A DNA stretch of 42,742 bases from assembly GCA_934167685.1 (NCBI GenBank), contig CAKPLQ010000004.1, positions 1 through 42,742 on the forward strand. Reading direction: 5' to 3'. Below the pieces are notes generated by a model, which saw nothing but the letters and a program-made list of their open reading frames with translations, did no database searches and had not been told where the DNA came from. This DNA is from an uncultured Clostridia bacterium (GTDB lineage: Bacteria > Bacillota > Clostridia > TANB77 > CAG-508). Below are positions 7,576 to 42,642 of this stretch, piece by piece. Numbering within the stretch: the first letter of the stretch is position 1; each line of letters begins with the position of its first letter. Both the position numbers and the translations under genes were made by a program.

Positions 7576-7647
7576 ATGCACCGCAGAGAACCGGTCCCAA
7601 ACGTGCAAAAAAATGCACCGCAGAGAACCGGTCCCAACGGTGCAAAA
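7576..7647 (+). repeat. Tandem GC-rich hairpin repeat (two ~36-nt units), copy A
   Basis: atgcaccgcagagaaccggtcccaaacgtgcaaaa followed by atgcaccgcagagaaccggtcccaacggtgcaaaa. Unit 2 forms TGCACCG-N17-CGGTGCA. A near-identical copy is at 22463-22534. Confidence 0.85.
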
Positions 7648-11317: not shown

Positions 11318-12043
11318 TTACGCATGCACTTTTTTGTGGCATGCCCAGGCAATTGGAGCCTGATTGAAAAGAGTTTCAGCGTTTACTTTTCGTACCTCAT
11401 TAGAGGTTGTAGTTGTAATAATAGCCTCATCCTCTCTGATGGCCCAAATGATTACAGCTTCATTTGAGCTTAATGAAGGGTCATCATGCAACCAGGAAGT
11501 AGGAACTAACGCGATTACTGGATGGCATCTGCAAACAGAATCGACAGCTTCGAATTTAGAACACTGAATTTTTGTTATTATTTCATATTTCATTTCCAGA
11601 ACTTTATCCATAGCAATCCAGAGTGTACCAGAACTTTTTGTACGGTAATTATTGTTTACTAAAGTTTTTCCGATATCTATCAAAAGTTCCTCTCTGTTTT
11701 TGAATTCTGTTTTTCCATTGTTGAGTGCTTCATATACCGTTGCCATAGCACACGGTATTGAGCCACCGATAGCCATTGTTTTGTATGGCTCTGATGGTTC
11801 TTCAAAGGTTGAGCCCTTACTAAAACAACCGCGATAATCAAAAACGATATTTGAATATTGTTTTTGATTGTATGGTACAGGAATGCGCTCTTCCTTTATC
11901 CCTACAGATAAGTGAGGATAAAGCTCTGTTTGTAAAGATTCCTTCCAGGTAGACTTAAGAAATGCAACTTTCTTTATATATTTCTCGTAAGTTGCTGAGT
12001 CTACATGTGCGTTGATACCTGTGTTCCGTAACATTTCTAACAT
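11318..12043 (-). CDS. Hypothetical protein, GC-richer than its neighbours; possible papain-fold Cys/His peptidase
   Basis: AAGGAGG RBS and its own consensus promoter. GGSIPCAMATVYEAL and a later CHPVIALV resemble C39-like peptidase Cys and His blocks; the resemblance is weak. Confidence 0.6.
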   Translation of the reverse strand: MLEMLRNTGINAHVDSATYEKYIKKVAFLKSTWKESLQTELYPHLSVGIKEERIPVPYNQKQYSNIVFDYRGCFSKGSTFEEPSEPYKTMAIGGSIPCAMATVYEALNNGKTEFKNREELLIDIGKTLVNNNYRTKSSGTLWIAMDKVLEMKYEIITKIQCSKFEAVDSVCRCHPVIALVPTSWLHDDPSLSSNEAVIIWAIREDEAIITTTTSNEVRKVNAETLFNQAPIAWACHKKVHA

Positions 12044-12144: not shown

Positions 12145-12465
12145 TTATCTAGGTTCTTGGCCATTAGACTCAACTTTTTTAGAAGTAAATAAATCTTCTT
12201 TTATTTTTTCTTTGCCTAGAGGGTCTTTAGTTAAATCTCCTAATTTTTTAGCTCTACTATGAGTAATTGAGCAAGTATAACCTGTACCAGGTTGATTTAA
12301 AGAAACGCTACTGTTAGTATGAGCATATGATTCTGCAATTGAAACAGTCAAATAATTAGGACCTTTACCAGAAATATAAACAGCCTTTCCTTGAGGAACT
12401 TCTGGAACTACTACTTTAGGTAAATTATTTTCGTCATAAGTTGTAATGCCCTCTGGTAAATCCAT
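12145..12465 (-). CDS. Stand-alone Csx3/Crn3-like domain protein (106 aa)
   Basis: Aligns over ~75 aa with residues ~321-392 of the 496-aa ORF. Motif VYISGKGPNYL...SYAHT...QPGTGYTC...THS. No clear RBS. Confidence 0.5.
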   Translation of the reverse strand: MDLPEGITTYDENNLPKVVVPEVPQGKAVYISGKGPNYLTVSIAESYAHTNSSVSLNQPGTGYTCSITHSRAKKLGDLTKDPLGKEKIKEDLFTSKKVESNGQEPR

Positions 12466-12508
12466 TTCATATTCAACTAAAACAGATATAAATATATTTT
12501 TAAAAATT

Positions 12509-13006
12509 TTAAGCTTTAGTATTATTATAAATATTTTTATTTATAACATAATCAGTAAAAGTAGATAAAGTATTTTTAATATTATCAGAATAAGATAGAA
12601 AATTATAACTCAATGATTCACATATATAACCTAAATTAATAAAATCGTCATTAGAATTTAAATCGGTTATAATTATTTCATCAAAATTATCAAACATTCT
12701 AATATCAATAAGTTCTTCAACATTAAAATTTAAAAGTTCCTTATTTTCTATATAATCTTTAAATATATTGCTATCGGTTTTAACTAATAAATCAGCTACA
12801 TTACCATCAAAATCAAGAACGGTATATTTATAATAATTAATATTTAATTCTTTTTGTAGAAAAATAATTAATTTATCAATAATCAAATTTTTATTTTGAT
12901 ATAGAATATTTTTAATTTTATTCAAAGCTTTTTTATCTTGTTCTAATTTTAATTCTACTGTAGAAGCCATATCTAATAAATTTTTATATGATTGTATCAT
13001 TTTCAA
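12509..13006 (-). CDS. Hypothetical protein (165 aa), extremely AT-rich
   Basis: ORF in the operon between the NTPase fusion and the Csx3-like ORF. Weak AAAGGA RBS; no recognisable motif. Confidence 0.5.
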   Translation of the reverse strand: MKMIQSYKNLLDMASTVELKLEQDKKALNKIKNILYQNKNLIIDKLIIFLQKELNINYYKYTVLDFDGNVADLLVKTDSNIFKDYIENKELLNFNVEELIDIRMFDNFDEIIITDLNSNDDFINLGYICESLSYNFLSYSDNIKNTLSTFTDYVINKNIYNNTKA

Positions 13007-13098
13007 ATCCTTTCTGTATATAATTGTTTTATCTGAATAAATTATATAATAAATCTTTTTAAAAGTAAAATTAATATTTAAAATACGGAATATTAATT

Positions 13099-14589
13099 TT
13101 ACTTATATATAGGCTCGGAAATATTCTTGGTTGGAGTCGTGTGAAAAGATTTATCAGTTTCAAATTCAGAGACTTTTAAGTCATCTTGCAAACTATGTTT
13201 ATTAGTAGGAACAGATATACTAATAGGTTCTTCAACAACATGAGATTTTATTGCTGAATTAATATATTTTTTGTTTCCTCTATATTGAGTAAACCATTTT
13301 TTTAGTTTAGCAAAAATAGTAGGAGGTTCAAAAACATCTATTGATTTTGCAGTATGGGCCTTTTTTCCATCCTCAAAATATTGAGTTATATTTAATCCAT
13401 CAGGACCATCAACAATTTTTCCTAGTTCTTTTTCGGCTTGGGATTCAATACAAGTAAATCCTTTTCCAGGTTGGAAAGTGAAAATTTTATTTGAATCATA
13501 GCTATTAGTTATAGAGGCTAAAAGCCAATGAGGTACTCTACCAGAAATAAAAAGATTCTTATTTTTATTTATCTTTGGTAAAACACAATCATCAAATTCA
13601 TCTGCCTCATATATTCCATCTGGAATTGAGATATCCAAAAAGGCATTAGTTTTGTTTTCTAACAAGTTAAAAGTTAAGCTTGTTACTTGACGTACACCAC
13701 GTTTTTGAGGTAAATTTCTTAAAGGAATATAAGTATTTGTCCATATATCATAAATACTTATATCTTCACAGCCACATTTTTTGGCAGTTTTGGCTATAGA
13801 ACACACTGCAAAATTAGCTTTAAATCCATATAATTTTAAAGATTTGCCTGGTTGTAGTTTATCTGAAACAGCTTTTTGAATTTTAGATATTGCAGATGTT
13901 GGCCAAATAACTCTTTGGATTGTTTTGGGTTGATTGTTTTCAGGATTAGTATATTCATGAGATTGACAATATCCTAATTTAGTTCCTAAATCTAAGTTAT
14001 CTATTAAAATTTCTTGTGAGTTTGACTCCACAAATTTTGGTTTTTCATCATAATTAATTTTTGAAAGAAGGTCAAATACAAAAGAGTTTAAGATTGGTGA
14101 ATTTTTTATAGTATTTCCTCTTTCTAAATTTGTTATTTTTCCTTGAAGATAAGGTTTTTTAGAATAAATTCTATCTTTTCCTTCAAGTGATGAATCTAGA
14201 CAAGCTAAACAAGTTAAACCAAGGCTTTCACCAAATTGTAGCCATTTATTTTTTTCTTCTTCATTATTACTTAAAATAACAAAACTATCACAATGCTTGA
14301 AAATTGTAGCATTTTCAGGTGTAAGCTTTCCTCCAACATCTACCATAACAATTGGATGATTTTTTTGGTTATCTATTATTTCACATACATTTTCTACAAA
14401 TTCAGTTGTAAATTCACCTTTACGCCTAACCAAAAGAGTCTCATTTTGATTAGGATTATTACTCCAAGAGCCTTCGCCATCTGGGCAAGCTCTAATTGTT
14501 GAATATGAATCTGCTGGAAGAGCATTAGATATATTTGTAAAAAATACACTTTTACCAGAATGTGGAGGTCCGCAAAATATTATTTTCAT
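13099..14589 (-). CDS. P-loop NTPase fused to a Csx3/Crn3-like domain (496 aa)
   Basis: Walker A GPPHSGKS and Walker-B-like PIVMVDVGG. C-terminal LFISGRVPHWLLASITNSY...QPGKGFTC block (nt 13405-13683). Its GGAGG RBS (14599-14603) overlaps the LysR stop codon. Confidence 0.7.
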   Translation of the reverse strand: MKIIFCGPPHSGKSVFFTNISNALPADSYSTIRACPDGEGSWSNNPNQNETLLVRRKGEFTTEFVENVCEIIDNQKNHPIVMVDVGGKLTPENATIFKHCDSFVILSNNEEEKNKWLQFGESLGLTCLACLDSSLEGKDRIYSKKPYLQGKITNLERGNTIKNSPILNSFVFDLLSKINYDEKPKFVESNSQEILIDNLDLGTKLGYCQSHEYTNPENNQPKTIQRVIWPTSAISKIQKAVSDKLQPGKSLKLYGFKANFAVCSIAKTAKKCGCEDISIYDIWTNTYIPLRNLPQKRGVRQVTSLTFNLLENKTNAFLDISIPDGIYEADEFDDCVLPKINKNKNLFISGRVPHWLLASITNSYDSNKIFTFQPGKGFTCIESQAEKELGKIVDGPDGLNITQYFEDGKKAHTAKSIDVFEPPTIFAKLKKWFTQYRGNKKYINSAIKSHVVEEPISISVPTNKHSLQDDLKVSEFETDKSFHTTPTKNISEPIYK

Positions 14590-14602
14590 TAGTTTAATCC
14601 TC

Positions 14603-15490
14603 CTATTGATAGTAATTTTTAATTTCTTTAATCAACTCTAAAGTTGCTTTATTAGCCATTTTAGGATTTAATACTGCAATTCCTTCCTCTGTTATATCAA
14701 ATTCTATTTCTTTTAAAATTTTAATATCATCCTTAATATTTTCAATATTTTCAGTATTAGTAAATCCAATGCCAATATCATTTAATACTAACTTTTTCAT
14801 TATAGAAGAACTAGAAACTTCATAATTAGCAGTCAAATTTAAATTGTTTTCTTCACAATAGTCATTTAATATTTTTCTCTTAGATGAAAGTGGAGATGGT
14901 AATATCAATTTATGATTTTCAATATCTTTGAAATTCTTGACAGGATGTTCTTTTATATATTTTTTGCTAGCAAAAAAACAATAACTAGATTCTTTTAATG
15001 GTATAATTTCAACATTAGAGTTCTTAGTGATTTTTTGTTGCAAATTTAAAGCAACTATGTCAATTTCACCATTAGAAAGTTTTTGCAATAACGAATCAGT
15101 TAGTCCACTTTTAATAGAAACATCTATGTCTGGATATTTTTTCATAAAAGATATAATTGGAGGAAGAATTAGAGTAGTAACTAAAGAATTACCACCAGCG
15201 ATTCTAATTTTTCCTTTTTCTAAATTAATATATTTTGAAAATATATTTTCTGCATTATTCATAGTTTCTATACTGTCTTTTATATATTCATATAAATGTT
15301 TGCCTTCTTCAGTTAATTCAACACCAGTTCTACTTCTATAAAACACTTTACCGCCAAGTAGACTTTCAAGCTTTTGAATAGACTGGGTAATTGCTGACTG
15401 CGAAATATATAGACTTTCAGCAGTTTTTGAAATATTTTTATATTTTACAACTTCACAAAATACTTTATATAATTCTAAATCTGTATTCAT
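14603..15490 (-). CDS. LysR-family transcriptional regulator
   Basis: N-terminal HTH NISKTAESLYISQSAITQSIQKLE and a typical ~295-aa LysR substrate-binding layout. Confidence 0.9.
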   Translation of the reverse strand: MNTDLELYKVFCEVVKYKNISKTAESLYISQSAITQSIQKLESLLGGKVFYRSRTGVELTEEGKHLYEYIKDSIETMNNAENIFSKYINLEKGKIRIAGGNSLVTTLILPPIISFMKKYPDIDVSIKSGLTDSLLQKLSNGEIDIVALNLQQKITKNSNVEIIPLKESSYCFFASKKYIKEHPVKNFKDIENHKLILPSPLSSKRKILNDYCEENNLNLTANYEVSSSSIMKKLVLNDIGIGFTNTENIENIKDDIKILKEIEFDITEEGIAVLNPKMANKATLELIKEIKNYYQ

Positions 15491-15777: not shown

Positions 15778-16416
15778 ATGAAAATGTCTGAAATCTTAAA
15801 CAAAAAAGGAATCGAAGCCGAAAATCAGTACTATAACGAGCCAGCTCTGAATGGACGTTCTAGAAGAGGTGTAATCCGCAAGGAAATGCGGATATATGGC
15901 CCAACAACTTGGACAGATTCAGTTTACTCCATTGTTGGAGTAGAAATAGACACAGAAGAGAGGTCAATTAAGGTAGACTTCTTAATGGGAGCCATGCCAA
16001 TGGCCGAGAACTTGTTTCTGGCACTCCTGGCGGACAGAGATGTTCGTCGACTGATAAAAGGATATCAGGAAATAGGACGGTGCCAAGGACAAAAATATCG
16101 TGTCTGGAGCACAACAGGGATGACAGGAAGGGAAGATATATTCCTGACAACGGGCAGAACTGTTGGTGGCTTTGCAATAACCAGAACTATAAAGCTCTGC
16201 CATATCTCTCAGTTTGGAAAACTGAACGAGGGATTTGGCGACAAGGATTCTTCAATGTATGTTGGAGACTTTGTCGAATTGGCAGTCTATATGGGTCTGA
16301 CAGACGACATGTCTGTCAAAGGTTTAAGAAAAAGGGCAGGAGGTGTCAAGTATCTTAAACCGAAGTTTGCAGAAGAAATTGCTGACTTCAAAGAAGAAGT
16401 TAGCAAGATATTGTAA
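15778..16416 (+). CDS. Hypothetical protein (212 aa), compositionally foreign (GC-rich)
   Basis: AAGGAG RBS and a clean ORF followed by a strong terminator. G/C content is far above the flanks; no family recognised. Confidence 0.65.
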   Translation: MKMSEILNKKGIEAENQYYNEPALNGRSRRGVIRKEMRIYGPTTWTDSVYSIVGVEIDTEERSIKVDFLMGAMPMAENLFLALLADRDVRRLIKGYQEIGRCQGQKYRVWSTTGMTGREDIFLTTGRTVGGFAITRTIKLCHISQFGKLNEGFGDKDSSMYVGDFVELAVYMGLTDDMSVKGLRKRAGGVKYLKPKFAEEIADFKEEVSKIL

Positions 16417-22462: not shown

Positions 22463-22534
22463 ATGCACGGCAGAGAACCGGTCCCAAACGTGCAAAAAAT
22501 GCACCGATGAGAACCGGTCCCAACGGTGCAAAAT
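22463..22534 (+). repeat. Tandem GC-rich hairpin repeat, copy B
   Basis: atgcacggcagagaaccggtcccaaacgtgcaaaa followed by atgcaccgatgagaaccggtcccaacggtgcaaaa. It differs from 7576-7647 at only about five positions (counted by eye). Confidence 0.85.
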
Positions 22535-38782: not shown

Positions 38783-39616
38783 TTATTTGACTTCTAATAA
38801 TTTTTTTTCTTTTTCTAATTGTTTTAGACTTTTTTCTGGAGTGGGTAAATCTTCTGGCATAGTGCCACCAAGTTCTTTTATTGTATTTCTTATTTTGGAA
38901 CCAACTTCATAATGTGTTTTATTAGCAGCTGATTCAGTTTGTATGTTATCTCGTTTTAATCTTGACTCAGTTTGTGTAATACGAAATAGATTTGCTGCAA
39001 GTTCTTCACTGCCCATATTATCTAAAATATCTTCTCTATATCGTAGATCTTTTCTTTTGGCTATATCGTCAGCAGTTTCGCCATTATATAATCCTTTATA
39101 TCCAGCGTTATGGAATTTATCAAAGTTTTTTACTCCTGCATTTTTGGCAGCCTGGTTAAGTGAATAGTTTCCTTTTCTTGTTAGATTTCTTTGGTAAAAT
39201 CTTTTTTCGTCCTCTGTTAACATACTGTATTCTTTTTCTGTAAGTTCTTGCTTTCTTGTTTGAATTGCAAAATATGTTTGGGCAAGAGCTATGACTTTTT
39301 TTCGGCTATCACCATTTTGAGCAATTAAGTAACAGGCATAGCGGGTTAGTTTGTAATCTTTAATTTCTTTTTCAGCTCCAGAGCCTATTGCCACCATCTT
39401 CCTGACATCAAGAAAATGGTCAAGATTACTTATATTGCTGTTTTCACAAGATTGTTTGGCCTTTCTTATTACTTTCTCGAAATTTTCCCATTTGTTATAT
39501 TCTAAAATCTTTTGTAATTCTCTAGCATACCAATATTCAACTCCATTTTCATCAATGTGCTTAATATTTTCAAAGTTTTCATTTGTATAACTTGAAGTTT
39601 TTTCTAATTGTTTCAT
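38783..39616 (-). CDS. dinD: DNA damage-inducible protein D
   Basis: ENGVEYWYARELQKILEYNKWENF...LTRYACYLIAQNGDSRK... matches the DinD pattern I recall; AAGGAGGTG RBS. Confidence 0.75.
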   Translation of the reverse strand: MKQLEKTSSYTNENFENIKHIDENGVEYWYARELQKILEYNKWENFEKVIRKAKQSCENSNISNLDHFLDVRKMVAIGSGAEKEIKDYKLTRYACYLIAQNGDSRKKVIALAQTYFAIQTRKQELTEKEYSMLTEDEKRFYQRNLTRKGNYSLNQAAKNAGVKNFDKFHNAGYKGLYNGETADDIAKRKDLRYREDILDNMGSEELAANLFRITQTESRLKRDNIQTESAANKTHYEVGSKIRNTIKELGGTMPEDLPTPEKSLKQLEKEKKLLEVK

Positions 39617-41433: not shown

Positions 41434-42642
41434 ATGCTAGATTTAATGAAGTGTTTGTTAATGAATAAAAATAGACCGATTGTGTTAATAGAATATAATA
41501 CGAAATATAACTCAATAGAAAAAGTATATGAAATTTATGATATTAAATATGCTCCGTTATCTGTATATAATGCATACACTAATAAAGCGCAAAACTTAAC
41601 TGAAGCAATCAACAAATGGTTTAGAAATAGAGGAATACCAGCATGGAGAAAAGATATTGAAAGACTATTAGAAAGATTAAATGTAGAAACAACAGAAGAA
41701 TTGATTAATAAAGCATATGCATTGGGGCTATCTGACCAGTATTGGATAAAAGAAGAAAAAAGTTCTATAAAGTGGTCTGACATAAATTTTTTTGAAAATG
41801 ATTTTAAATATAAAGGATACTTACAAGCATCTTTAAGCCAAGGAAAGTATAATAGCAAAATAGAACAGGCAGAGCTAATGTCACCCAATAATACAACAGA
41901 TGGAATGTTGCAAAAAGGCTGGATTATCGAAAACAATAAAAGAATATTAGTAAAAGGAACATATCAGGCAAGCAGAGAAGAGCCGATAAATGAATGGTTA
42001 GCTGCAGAAATATGTAAAAGGCTAGGATTTTTTCATTGTAATTACTGGATTGATATAGTTAATGATAATCTTGTGTCAAAATGTGAAGATTTCATTAATG
42101 AAGATGAAGAAATAATATCAGCATATGATATATATTATTTTGAAAAGAAATCTAATAGCATAAATGATTATCAACATTATATAAGTATTTTAGAAAATCA
42201 AGGAGTACCAAATGCAAGAGAGAATGTAGAAAATATGTTTATATTAGATTACTTAATAATGAATATAGATAGACATATGAAAAATTTTGGGGTAATTAGA
42301 GATGTAAATACTCTTGAGTGGGTAAGAACAACTCCAATATTTGATAATGGAGAGAGTATGCAATGTGAAAAACTTACTAATAATATTAACTTTTCTAATG
42401 GTAAAGGAAAATTTTTTAGTAATACAAATAAAGATTATGAAGAGATACTAAAAAGTATTGGGCATAATATATCTAGAATTGAGATAACTAAACTTGATGG
42501 TTTAGTTGAAGAATATAGAGAAAAATTAAAAAAGTATAAAGATTATACAGATAGTTCAGAAGAAAGAATAGATAAACTTTGTGAAGGATTGCAATATAGA
42601 ATAAATATGTTAAATAAAAAGATAAACGAGAGTATTTTTTAA
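41434..42642 (+). CDS. HipA-like serine/threonine kinase-fold protein (orphan)
   Basis: LIMNIDRHMKNFGVIRD (D-x-H-x-x-N catalytic-loop-like) and TPIFDNGES (Mg-binding DxG-like). The start is uncertain (41434, 41446 or 41461). Confidence 0.65.
   Translation: MLDLMKCLLMNKNRPIVLIEYNTKYNSIEKVYEIYDIKYAPLSVYNAYTNKAQNLTEAINKWFRNRGIPAWRKDIERLLERLNVETTEELINKAYALGLSDQYWIKEEKSSIKWSDINFFENDFKYKGYLQASLSQGKYNSKIEQAELMSPNNTTDGMLQKGWIIENNKRILVKGTYQASREEPINEWLAAEICKRLGFFHCNYWIDIVNDNLVSKCEDFINEDEEIISAYDIYYFEKKSNSINDYQHYISILENQGVPNARENVENMFILDYLIMNIDRHMKNFGVIRDVNTLEWVRTTPIFDNGESMQCEKLTNNINFSNGKGKFFSNTNKDYEEILKSIGHNISRIEITKLDGLVEEYREKLKKYKDYTDSSEERIDKLCEGLQYRINMLNKKINESIF

What the first reader, a model, noticed from the sequence alone, without database searches (positions are those of the whole stretch)
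12145..15490. CRISPR-less operon: LysR regulator, P-loop NTPase fused to a Csx3/Crn3-like domain, an orphan, and a stand-alone Csx3-like protein
Seen in the sequence: four co-directional minus-strand ORFs lie 13, 92 and 43 nt apart. They are LysR (14603-15490), a 496-aa ORF (13099-14589), a 165-aa ORF (12509-13006) and a 106-aa ORF (12145-12465). The GGAGG of the 496-aa ORF (14599-14603) overlaps the LysR stop codon, which implies translational coupling. The 496-aa protein opens with a Walker A (GPPHSGKS) and a hydrophobic-strand-Asp (PIVMVDVGG), so residues 1 to ~185 form a compact P-loop NTPase. Its residues ~321-392 align with the 106-aa ORF over ~75 aa. The matching blocks are SIPDGI/DLPEGI, LFISGRVPHWLLASITNSY/VYISGKGPNYLTVSIAESY, QPGKGFTC/QPGTGYTC and ELGKI/KLGDL. 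From recalled knowledge: the layout strand-'ISG(R/K)xPxW/YL'-helix-'..PG.G' is what I remember of the Csx3 family (Cas_csx3, renamed Crn3). That family is the metal-dependent cyclic tetra-adenylate ring nuclease associated with type III CRISPR-Cas. ATPase-Csx3 fusions have been noted in CRISPR-neighbourhood surveys. Inference: there is no cas gene, CRISPR array or Cas10/CD-NTase-like cyclase anywhere in these 42.7 kb. The module is instead joined to a LysR regulator and orphan proteins inside an accessory block. This looks like a Csx3-type oligonucleotide-binding or -cleaving domain recruited into a CRISPR-independent NTPase system. It could be a defence module, an anti-defence module, or second-messenger housekeeping.
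Basis: partly seen in the sequence, partly recalled or inferred. Interest (0 to 1): 0.85.

Follow-up and report, generated by a model that had tools for sequence, protein, structure and literature searches.

The report
CRISPR-less NTPase–Csx3 module, partly decayed
This is a partly broken copy of a conserved gene set from gut Clostridia, built on a protein fold that normally destroys the alarm molecule of type III CRISPR immunity but found here with no CRISPR system nearby; it suggests a testable two-protein mechanism for a family whose function is unknown.

Summary
The ORFs, spacings, Walker motifs and internal similarity (BLASTP E 3e-13) are real. The Csx3 call is confirmed by Pfam above its gathering cutoff, by PDB sequence hits and by Foldseek (TM about 0.8). 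Four corrections apply. (1) The NTPase–Csx3 fusion is a described but uncharacterised type III accessory family ("AAA-Csx3"). It carries two tandem Csx3-like domains, and its NTPase is MinD/Mrp-like, not AAA+. (2) The 165-aa "orphan" is a conserved partner (24 of 26 loci). (3) The 106-aa "stand-alone Csx3" is the 3' remnant of a tandem-Csx3 gene, cut by a 377-bp deletion. (4) The real unit is fusion + LysR + ~160-aa protein + tandem-Csx3 partner, which often carries a 2H phosphodiesterase. It occurs as mobile-element cargo or as a chromosomal islet, never with CRISPR within 10 kb. The fusion keeps the Crn3 Asp/Arg face and the partner keeps the His face. Best guess (0.4): an oligoadenylate-binding and -degrading device working by Crn3-like stacking. 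This window's copy probably cannot cleave.

The parts
14603..15490 (-). LysR-type transcriptional regulator (295 aa). It is always next to the fusion gene in this clade.
   Evidence: Pfam HTH_1 (3.5e-17) and LysR_substrate (6.3e-25). Homologues at 66-88% identity lie within 7 kb of the fusion in 25 of 26 loci and are directly adjacent in 22.
14599..14603 (-). GGAGG Shine-Dalgarno sequence of the fusion gene, overlapping the LysR stop codon
   Evidence: Read directly...CAA TAG GAGG ATTAAACTA ATG.
14035..14589 (-). Fusion protein residues 1-185: P-loop NTPase domain, SIMIBI-like (MinD/Mrp/ParA/HypB)
   Evidence: Walker A G7-S14, D37/E39 and D84-G87 are invariant in 110-111 of 111 homologues. PADLOC PDLC01515 hits residues 1-169 at E 2.8e-49. 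Foldseek hits ApbC, MinD, ParF, HypB and Npa3 at E 3e-4 to 1e-2. The domain is 29-35% identical to the NTPase of cyanobacterial Csx3-AAA proteins.
13690..14013 (-). Fusion residues about 193-300: diverged first Csx3-like domain (D1). It carries D281 (equivalent to AfCsx3 D69) and W283 (R71 position; Arg in 100 of 111 homologues).
   Evidence: The AF2 model shows the same beta-beta-alpha-beta-alpha-beta-beta order as D2. hhalign against partner D1 gives 97.5% probability, E 5e-12, and partner D1 against AfCsx3 gives 92.8%. Residue census.
13396..13689 (-). Fusion residues 301-398: second Csx3-like domain (D2). It has the S349-G350-R351...P353.W355 ligand loop, but N362, D365, Q373, G375 and Q384 in place of H57, H60, D69, R71 and H80.
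   Evidence: Pfam Cas_csx3 24.7 bits, residues 325-390. phmmer against AfCsx3 gives E 1e-3. Foldseek against AfCsx3 gives TM 0.76-0.82 and rmsd about 2 A. Census.
13099..13395 (-). Fusion residues 399-496 plus the stop codon: basic, mostly disordered tail with an amphipathic helix (PTIFAKLKKWFTQY)
   Evidence: pLDDT is below 50 for residues 415-437 and 458-496. Hydrophobic moment and pI 9.1. Most family members of about 380-400 aa lack the tail.
12509..13006 (-). Conserved ~160-aa partner of unknown fold (probable start ATG 13000), with a basic N-terminal helix and an acidic C-terminal two-thirds
   Evidence: Homologues in 24 of 26 loci. No hit in Pfam, NCBIfam, PADLOC, PHROGs or PDB. pI 4.6 overall, 4.05 for residues 61-165.
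12145..12486 (-). 3' remnant of the tandem-Csx3 partner gene. Only domain 2 survives. The ORF is 12145-12465, and in-frame remnant codons run up to the deletion junction at 12486/12487.
   Evidence: blastn against L036 shows a 377-bp deletion. The remnant is 79-81% identical to the C-terminal ~100 aa of the 244-aa and 388-aa partners. Pfam Cas_csx3 25.5 bits. It keeps E, H and H at the positions of partner E171, H175 and H195, but has lost domain 1 with H76, H79 and H101.
11318..12043 (-). 241-aa gene of unknown function, specific to this lineage (L001, L036). It is the last gene before the terminator.
   Evidence: Perfect TTGACA-17-TATAAT promoter at 12141-12113, and terminator at 11297-11267. 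Homologues occur only in L001 and L036. No family hit.
15778..16416 (+). 212-aa gene transcribed divergently from LysR. It recurs beside the module. GC is 42% against 25-29% for its neighbours.
   Evidence: Homologues at 44-57% identity next to the module in L010, L011, L017 and L019, and at 99% in L036. GC. No family hit.

Best explanation
The locus is a partly decayed copy of a conserved four-gene module of gut Clostridia. The genes are (i) a MinD/Mrp-like P-loop NTPase fused to two tandem Csx3/Crn3-fold domains, (ii) a LysR regulator, (iii) a ~160-aa acidic protein and (iv) a second tandem-Csx3 protein that often carries an N-terminal 2H phosphodiesterase.

Shown: the folds, the conserved gene set, the absence of CRISPR within 10 kb, and a complementary split of the Crn3 catalytic residues. 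The fusion keeps the Asp69/Arg71 face, and the partner keeps the His57/His60/His80 face.

Inferred: each tandem pair forms a pseudo-dimer like the Crn3 homodimer. The fusion binds a cA4-like oligoadenylate on its Asp/Arg face. The partner stacks head-to-tail onto it and supplies the metal-binding His face, so a composite phosphodiesterase site forms, as it does between two Crn3 dimers. The 2H, PHP or MYG1 phosphoesterases found alongside finish off the products. The NTPase couples ligand-driven assembly to nucleotide hydrolysis, and LysR sets expression.

The net role would be removal of an oligoadenylate immune messenger made elsewhere. That acts as an off-switch when the module is chromosomal and as anti-defence when a mobile element carries it.

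The window's copy has lost the partner's His-bearing domain and carries R283W, so it can probably bind the ligand but not cleave it.
For: Csx3 fold. Tandem domains: two Cas_csx3 stretches in the full partners, hhalign links, matching secondary-structure order.

Complementary residues: the fusion has D281 in 111 of 111 sequences and R283 in 100 of 111, with no His at the 57, 60 or 80 positions. The partner's D1 has H76 and H79 in 111 of 113 and H101 in 98 of 113, with no Asp or Arg. Crn3 needs both faces from separate dimers, and mixing the inactive H60A and D69A variants restores activity (PMC7371418).

Recurrent phosphoesterases: the 2H domain on the partner (HxT motifs; CNPase hits; Acb1 and viral 2H PDE hits), PHP in L004, and MYG1 in place of the partner in L038.

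Mobile-element cargo: an element bearing serine recombinases splits a peptidase S11 gene in L004. Mob_Pre, RepA_N or integrase genes lie nearby in L003, L037 and L038.

Decay in the window.
Against: No binding or cleavage has been measured, and no complex could be modelled.

The partner is absent from 10 of 26 loci, yet D281 is universal and R283 is kept in 7 of those 10. So these residues do not depend on a locally encoded partner and may serve binding only.

Domain 1 of the fusion lacks the S44/R46 ligand contacts, so the site is asymmetric and the ligand may not be cA4.

The role of the NTPase is pure inference.

In one widespread species the bare unit is fixed among housekeeping genes with no mobile-element hallmarks. 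It is absent from 50,697 phage records, from IMG/VR and from 72,556 plasmid records. Both points fit poorly with a dedicated anti-defence weapon.

No messenger synthase is known in the same genomes.
Confidence: 0.4

Rival explanations
1. The module is a defence or signalling effector rather than a messenger remover. The tandem Csx3 domains of the fusion sense cOA made by a type III CRISPR system (or another cyclase) elsewhere in the genome. The bound ligand switches on the NTPase, as Shah et al. proposed for AAA-Csx3. The output goes through the ~160-aa protein, the basic amphipathic tail or the LysR regulator. The His-bearing partner and its 2H domain are just the built-in off-switch.
For: The family is a described type III accessory. 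Distant members sit next to cas1-cas2 and an array, a WYL regulator, or Cmr genes. The module occurs both as cargo and as a stable chromosomal islet, as defence systems do. The fusion evolves faster (48-64% identity) than LysR (66-76%) or the partner (about 80%) between the same loci. The partner is dispensable in 10 of 26 loci.
Against: The core has no recognisable toxic effector domain: no nuclease, TIR, pore or protease. No cyclase or cas gene lies within 10 kb of any of the 26 loci. The only recurrent accessory enzymes are phosphoesterases.
Confidence: 0.3
2. The module has a non-immune role in nucleotide or RNA housekeeping under LysR control. For example, it might bind and turn over c-di-AMP/pApA or short RNAs, or process RNA ends. 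In this reading the Csx3 domains act as RNA or dinucleotide binders, as in the older 'deadenylase' and STAS-like descriptions.
For: LysR regulators typically control metabolic operons. The module sits at a fixed housekeeping site in a widespread species. Only one of the two domains keeps the canonical S-G-R loop, so the ligand could be half the size of cA4. The associated 2H, PHP and MYG1 enzymes also act on RNA ends and nanoRNA. AfCsx3 binds and trims RNA in vitro (PMC7371418).
Against: The distribution is patchy, mobile and often decayed, which is unlike a housekeeping function. All the closest structural matches are the cA4-bound ring nuclease. The 2H domain is structurally closest to messenger-degrading viral enzymes and CNPase.
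Confidence: 0.15
3. In this particular window the whole block is a non-functional relic. The module is being lost after a deletion and a catalytic-site substitution.
For: A 377-bp deletion removed half of the partner gene together with its RBS. R283W occurs only in this lineage. The nearest relative, L001, has lost the partner completely and has a shortened 131-aa version of the ~160-aa gene.
Against: The 496-aa, LysR and 165-aa ORFs are intact. The fusion is 98% identical to P0001, and all NTPase motifs are preserved. L036 carries W283 together with an intact partner, so W283 predates the deletion and was tolerated.
Confidence: 0.15

Closest known systems
AAA-Csx3 (cluster 67, 'C3a67', e.g. 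Caur_2269) of Shah et al. 2019; PADLOC PDLC01059
   Same: Same domain order: N-terminal P-loop NTPase followed by Csx3. The profile match covers residues 3-366 at E 2e-48. The function is unknown in both.
   Different: The described members are type III CRISPR accessories. This clade is CRISPR-less within 10 kb and is instead locked to LysR, a ~160-aa protein and a tandem-Csx3 partner. It also has a ~100-aa basic tail. The second Csx3-like domain and the SIMIBI nature of the NTPase were not found described in the papers read here.
Crn3/Csx3 ring nuclease (A. fulgidus AF_1864; PDB 3WZG, 6YUD, 6VJG)
   Same: Same fold (TM 0.76-0.87, rmsd 1.3-2.3 A). The S-G-R...P.W ligand loop is retained in domain 2.
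   Different: Crn3 is a ~100-aa homodimer carrying both catalytic faces. Here two domains are fused in tandem, and the Asp/Arg and His residues are divided between two different proteins. Both window domains score far below the TIGR02579 cutoff (17-18 bits against 55.4). There is no type III locus nearby.
Cyanobacterial Csx3-AAA (cluster 35; e.g. the gene on Synechocystis pSYSA)
   Same: Homologous NTPase domain: 29-35% identity over residues 1-175, and PDLC01045 at E 1.2e-39.
   Different: The domain order is reversed. The gene is embedded in a Cmr type III locus on a CRISPR plasmid.
Ring nucleases encoded by mobile elements and used as anti-CRISPRs (AcrIII-1/Crn2, Crn4b, viral SAVED)
   Same: The concept is similar: a cOA-degrading fold carried by mobile elements away from CRISPR loci (PMC12830947).
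   Different: The folds are unrelated, and those are single small proteins. No Crn3 was found in 28,114 phage genomes (PMC12409355), and none was found here in phage, IMG/VR or plasmid collections. This module has several genes, is regulated and is NTPase-linked.
Acb1 (anti-CBASS 2H phosphodiesterase) and other 2H phosphoesterases (CNPase, viral NS2/VP3)
   Same: The N-terminal extension of the long-form partners has two HxT motifs and a 2H fold.
   Different: It is present only in relatives (L003, L016, L019, L037), not in this window. It is fused to tandem Csx3 domains, and its activity is untested.

Membership tests
Csx3/Crn3 (Pfam PF09620 Cas_csx3) | Domain-level sequence match above Pfam's gathering score | tested here: met
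   24.7 bits (496-aa protein, residues 325-390) and 25.5 bits (106-aa ORF) against a cutoff of 21. The full-length partners score 44-52 bits with two stretches each.
Csx3/Crn3 (Pfam PF09620 Cas_csx3) | Csx3 three-dimensional fold | tested here: met
   In Foldseek, AfCsx3 entries are the top hits: TM 0.76-0.82 for the fusion and 0.82-0.87 for the partner, probability 1.0.
Crn3 ring nuclease, equivalog level (NCBIfam TIGR02579) | Score at or above the curated equivalog cutoff (55.4 bits) | tested here: not met
   17.3 and 17.9 bits.
Crn3 ring nuclease | Metal-face histidines H57, H60 and H80, which are absolutely conserved and essential (PMC7371418) | tested here: not met
   Fusion D2 has N362, D365 and Q384, and fusion D1 has K267 and K270. 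The 106-aa remnant has E and A with only the H80 equivalent (plus an H61 equivalent). The histidines are present in D1 of intact partners (H76, H79, H101), which the window has deleted.
Crn3 ring nuclease | Catalytic D69 and R71 on the ligand face | tested here: not met
   D2 of both proteins has Q and G (109-112 of 111-113 sequences). Fusion D1 has D281, but in the window the R71 position is W283; it is Arg in 100 of 111 homologues.
Crn3 ring nuclease | cA4-contacting loop S44-G45-R46 and I49/W50 | tested here: met
   S349-G350-R351...W355 in fusion D2, and S-G-K...Y in the 106-aa remnant. The loop is only partly kept in D1 (G255, F260).
Crn3 ring nuclease | Single-domain ~100-aa protein acting as a homodimer or tetramer | tested here: not met
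   Both family proteins carry two tandem Csx3-like domains. The oligomeric state itself is not testable here.
Crn3 ring nuclease | Mn-dependent cleavage of cA4 | not testable with these tools
   Needs biochemistry.
Type III CRISPR accessory gene | Encoded within or next to a type III cas cassette | tested here: not met
   The window has no array and no cas gene, and neither does any of the 26 related loci within 10 kb. The rest of the genome could not be examined.
AAA-Csx3 (Shah cluster 67; PADLOC PDLC01059) | N-terminal P-loop NTPase followed by Csx3, matching the family profile | tested here: met
   PDLC01059 at E 2e-48 over residues 3-366, aligned to positions 7-346 of the 382-position model.
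SIMIBI-class P-loop NTPases (MinD/ParA/Mrp/HypB/GPN) | Walker A, Walker B of the DxxG type, and fold similarity | tested here: inconclusive
   The motifs are invariant. Foldseek hits ApbC, MinD, ParF, HypB and Npa3 only at E 3e-4 to 1e-2 with TM 0.3-0.5. There is no deviant Walker A lysine.
LysR-type transcriptional regulators | N-terminal HTH_1 plus LysR substrate-binding domain | tested here: met
   Pfam E 3.5e-17 and 6.3e-25.
2H phosphoesterases (relatives' partner extension only) | Two HxT/S motifs and the 2H fold | tested here: met
   The long-form partners have MHITF and PHITVS and hit CNPase, Acb1 and viral 2H PDEs. The domain is absent from the window.

The most novel reading that the evidence does not exclude
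The module is a natural 'split Crn3'. It would be a heteromeric ring nuclease whose active site exists only when the Asp/Arg face of an NTPase-linked tandem-Csx3 protein and the His face of a separate tandem-Csx3 protein (with or without a 2H domain) sandwich an oligoadenylate. NTP hydrolysis would gate assembly or turnover. The device would work independently of CRISPR loci, either as a mobile, LysR-regulated anti-signalling (anti-type III or anti-CBASS) system or as part of an undiscovered CRISPR-independent oligoadenylate pathway in gut Clostridia.
Probability: 0.2. Interest if true: 0.8.

Novelty: new variant of a known kind. Interest (0 to 1): 0.58.

Why it matters
Reviews have listed Csx3 fused to an 'AAA' ATPase as a type III accessory of unknown function since 2018 (PMC6546367, PMC8284326, PMC12409355). 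This locus led to a clade in which that fusion has left CRISPR loci and travels with three fixed partners. The essential Crn3 residues are divided between two proteins, in a pattern that mirrors the published H60A + D69A complementation experiment. That gives the family its first concrete, mutational prediction that can be tested. If the module clears immune messengers, it would be a new class of regulated, multi-protein off-switch or anti-defence device in abundant human and animal gut bacteria. If it senses them instead, it would be a type III-style effector acting in trans. Either result would widen the known reach of cOA signalling beyond CRISPR loci.

Tried and rejected
- Megablast of the 5.2-kb block against the phage and plasmid collections found nothing.
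- tblastn of the fusion and the partner against phages found nothing. Against plasmids, only cyanobacterial NTPase domains matched.
- IMG/VR scans with both alignments found nothing.
- PHROGs gave no meaningful hit for any module protein.
- The 165-, 212- and 241-aa proteins have no hit in Pfam, NCBIfam, PADLOC or PDB, so their roles stay open.
- A homologue search with the 106-aa ORF returned only 15 short fragments. Repeating it with the full-length partner from L004 worked.
- Direct hhalign of fusion D1 against AfCsx3 is not significant (0.6%). Homology rests on the link through partner D1.
- I tested whether R283 is retained only where a partner is present. It is not: R is kept in 7 of the 10 partner-less loci. 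I therefore lowered the obligate composite-site idea.
- An AAA+ identity for the NTPase was rejected, because Foldseek points to SIMIBI NTPases.
- A STAS or anti-sigma-antagonist reading was considered. No STAS structure appeared among the top 50 hits.
- PADLOC's 'Csa3/CasR' and 'Specificity_I' labels elsewhere in the window were checked and are not cas genes.
- The CARF-superfamily classification paper (Makarova 2020) is not held in the library.
- No paper mentions Csx3 together with LysR in a relevant way.

Full report
**1. The observation**

The four minus-strand ORFs exist at the stated coordinates, with gaps of 13, 92 and 43 nt. The GGAGG at 14599-14603 overlaps the LysR TAG stop codon, 9 nt upstream of the ATG of the 496-aa ORF. 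The 106-aa ORF aligns with residues 320-398 of the 496-aa protein at 33% identity, BLASTP E 3e-13. A weaker second match (E 0.043) falls on residues 237-268.

Pfam Cas_csx3 (PF09620) hits both proteins above its gathering score: 24.7 and 25.5 bits against a cutoff of 21. phmmer finds the A. fulgidus Csx3 structures at E 1e-3 to 1e-4. An AlphaFold2 model of the 496-aa protein (pLDDT 80, pTM 0.79) has AfCsx3 entries as its 12 best Foldseek hits, with TM 0.76-0.82, rmsd about 2 A and probability 1.0.

The window has no CRISPR array. None of its other 33 substantial ORFs hits a Cas10, Csm/Cmr or CD-NTase model. A 'Csa3/CasR' label belongs only to the HTH of an ArsR-like repressor next to a metal ATPase. 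The only cyclase is the housekeeping DisA of the radA-disA pair. The window is a 28.7% GC Firmicute chromosome segment.

**2.

(a) The fusion is a known architecture. PADLOC-DB's 'C3a67 AAA-Csx3' model covers residues 3-366 at E 2e-48. Two further 'Csx3' models match the NTPase domain alone, at 2.8e-49 and 1.2e-39. These models derive from clusters 67 and 35 of Shah et al. Those authors described AAA-Csx3 and Csx3-AAA as type III accessories of unknown function, and they speculated that cOA regulates the ATPase (PMC6546367). Later reviews still call the ATPase 'of unknown function' (PMC12409355; PMC8284326).

(b) The NTPase is not AAA+. Its structural neighbours are SIMIBI NTPases such as ApbC/Mrp, MinD, ParF, HypB, GPN and FtsY. 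Walker A, a DGEGxWSNN segment and Walker B (DxGG) are invariant in 110-111 of 111 homologues.

(c) The fusion has two Csx3-like domains. Residues about 193-300 (D1) have the same strand and helix order as residues 301-398 (D2). By hhalign, D1 matches domain 1 of the partner protein at 97.5% probability (E 5e-12), and partner domain 1 matches AfCsx3 at 92.8%. D2 matches partner domain 2 at 98.4% and AfCsx3 at 91.4%.

(d) The 106-aa ORF is a gene fragment. It is 79-81% identical to only the C-terminal ~100 residues of the 244-aa and 388-aa proteins in related loci. Locus L036 carries the same arrangement as the window, with an intact 233-aa gene. Window 16470-12487 matches L036 1-3984 at 98.6% identity, and window 12486-10701 matches L036 4362-6148 at 92.3%. 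So 377 bp are missing at the 12487|12486 junction. They held the GGAGG, the start codon and about 120 codons.

(e) The 165-aa 'orphan' is a conserved partner (see section 3).

**3. The conserved module**

The fusion has at least 399 close homologues. A profile search finds 726 representative clusters at 50% identity, most of them about 380-400 aa.

I examined 26 distinct, informative loci of the Clostridia clade:

| Feature | Loci (of 26) |
|---|---|
| Closely related LysR (66-88% identity) within 7 kb | 25 |
| LysR directly adjacent and co-directional | 22 |
| ~160-aa protein | 24 |
| Full tandem-Csx3 partner | 15 |
| Partner truncated (the window) | 1 |
| Partner absent | 10 |
| CRISPR array | 0 |

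The usual order is fusion, LysR, ~160 aa, partner. The window, L001 and L036 have LysR first. A homologue of the 212-aa gene recurs in six loci.

The module is sometimes cargo. In L004-6 an element of about 13.8 kb bearing serine recombinases splits a peptidase S11 gene. L003, L037 and L038 have integrase, RepA_N or Mob_Pre genes nearby. In one widespread gut species, however, the bare four-gene unit sits at a fixed site among housekeeping genes.

The module is absent from phage records, from plasmid records and from IMG/VR.

Distant homologues (33-39% identity) lack the partner genes. In Treponema saccharophilum the homologue lies beside cas1-cas2 and an array. In a Bacteroidales MAG it precedes a WYL regulator. 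The cyanobacterial relative on pSYSA lies in a Cmr locus. The clade has therefore swapped a CRISPR context for a LysR context.

**4. Catalytic residues**

In AfCsx3, H57, H60 and H80 (the metal face) and D69 and R71 (the ligand face) are essential. The active site forms between two dimers that sandwich cA4, and mixing the inactive H60A and D69A variants restores activity (PMC7371418).

I aligned 111 fusions and 113 partners in register with AfCsx3:

| Domain | Residues at the Crn3 catalytic positions |
|---|---|
| Fusion D1 | D281 (D69 position) in 111 of 111; R283 (R71 position) in 100 of 111; Lys at the H57 and H60 positions |
| Fusion D2 | keeps S-G-R...P.W; has N/S, D, Q, G and a variable residue at the 57, 60, 69, 71 and 80 positions |
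| Partner D1 | H76 and H79 in 111 of 113; H101 in 98 of 113; V/M and Q at the 69 and 71 positions |
| Partner D2 | E171, H175 and H195 almost invariant; Q and G at the 69 and 71 positions |

So the Asp/Arg face survives only on the fusion, and the His face survives only on the partner.

In the window's lineage alone (the window, P0001 and P0002) R283 is Trp. The window's deletion removed exactly the partner domain that carries H76, H79 and H101.

A caveat applies. D281 is universal, and R283 is kept in 7 of the 10 partner-less loci. These residues are therefore not maintained only for a locally encoded partner.

**5. Associated phosphoesterases**

Long-form partners carry an N-terminal extension with MHITF and PHITVS motifs. 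In a model of the 388-aa form (pLDDT 87), this extension matches the CNPase catalytic domain at probability 1.0. Among viral proteins it matches anti-CBASS Acb1, phage '2'-5' RNA ligase superfamily' proteins and the 2H phosphodiesterases of toroviruses, coronaviruses and rotavirus. L004 inserts a PHP-domain gene after the fusion. L038 has a MYG1 exonuclease where the partner normally sits. Four kinds of phosphoesterase therefore recur around the fusion.

**6. Interpretation**

Best explanation (confidence 0.4): the module binds and degrades oligoadenylates. The two tandem-Csx3 proteins would stack as Crn3 dimers do and form a composite site. The NTPase would couple assembly to nucleotide hydrolysis, and LysR would control expression. 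The module would act on a messenger made elsewhere, as an off-switch when chromosomal and as anti-defence when carried by a mobile element.

The folds, the gene set, the context and the residue pattern are shown. The ligand, the stacking, the catalysis and the NTPase role are inferred.

Rivals:
- A cOA-sensing NTPase effector acting in trans with a distant type III system (0.3).
- LysR-controlled nucleotide or RNA housekeeping, for example c-di-AMP or pApA turnover (0.15).
- For this window only, a relic in the process of being lost (0.15).

The window's copy is best seen as partly decayed. The fusion, LysR and the 165-aa gene are intact, but the partner is a promoterless fragment with no ribosome-binding site, and the Arg is lost.

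**7. Novelty**

The fusion family is known but uncharacterised. No paper searched here links Csx3 with LysR. The 2025 ring-nuclease survey found no Crn3 in phage genomes. The following appear to be new: the CRISPR-less four-gene module, the tandem-domain architecture, the split of catalytic residues between two proteins, the 2H fusion, and the SIMIBI assignment of the NTPase. I rate the finding a new variant of a known kind, of moderate to high interest. The interest lies mainly in making the long-open question of AAA-Csx3 function directly testable.

Noticed in passing
window 7577-7645 (+) and 22464-22531 (+): The 32-nt element TGCACCGNAGAGAACCGGTCCCAAACGTGCAA occurs four times, as two tandem pairs. 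One pair lies between an ArsR-like repressor gene and a heavy-metal P-type ATPase gene, and the other just upstream of radA. None is expected by chance. A pair folds at -27 kcal/mol (z = -5.5). It could be a shared operator or a REP-like element.
   Followed up: partly
window 38783-39616 (-) and 41434-42642 (+): A 277-aa protein hits PADLOC candidate defence family PDC-S13 (E 2.7e-111) and the N-terminal part of a type I specificity-subunit model. A 402-aa protein hits PDC-M03A (E 2.7e-18). Both are possible defence genes about 25 kb from the module.
   Followed up: partly
window 15778-16416 (+): The 212-aa gene transcribed divergently from LysR has 42% GC, against 25-29% for its neighbours. 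It recurs next to the module in five other loci but has no family, PHROG, PADLOC or PDB hit. It is a candidate LysR target or fifth module component.
   Followed up: partly
window 11318-12043 (-), promoter 12141-12113: The 241-aa gene has a perfect TTGACA-17-TATAAT promoter and a strong RBS. It is present only in this lineage (L001, L036) and has no detectable family.
   Followed up: partly
L004 3093-3518 and 17300-18091: A peptidase S11 (D-Ala-D-Ala carboxypeptidase) gene is split by an insertion of about 13.8 kb. The insertion carries two serine recombinases and the module, which gives a clean example of the module as cargo of an integrative element.
   Followed up: yes
L028 12934-16560 (Treponema saccharophilum DSM 2985): A distant (35%) AAA-Csx3 homologue lies about 1.7 kb upstream of cas1-cas2, which are followed by a CRISPR array. 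This shows that the deeper family is CRISPR-linked.
   Followed up: partly
Partner homologues P0145 and P0196 (406-417 aa), P0158 (340 aa), P0249 (407 aa): The tandem-Csx3 partner is also fused to at least two other unidentified N-terminal extensions and one C-terminal extension, besides the 2H domain.
   Followed up: no
window 13150-13395 (fusion residues 399-480): The basic C-terminal tail contains an amphipathic helix (PTIFAKLKKWFTQY) that recalls the membrane-targeting helices of MinD-type ATPases. It is modelled with low confidence.
   Followed up: no
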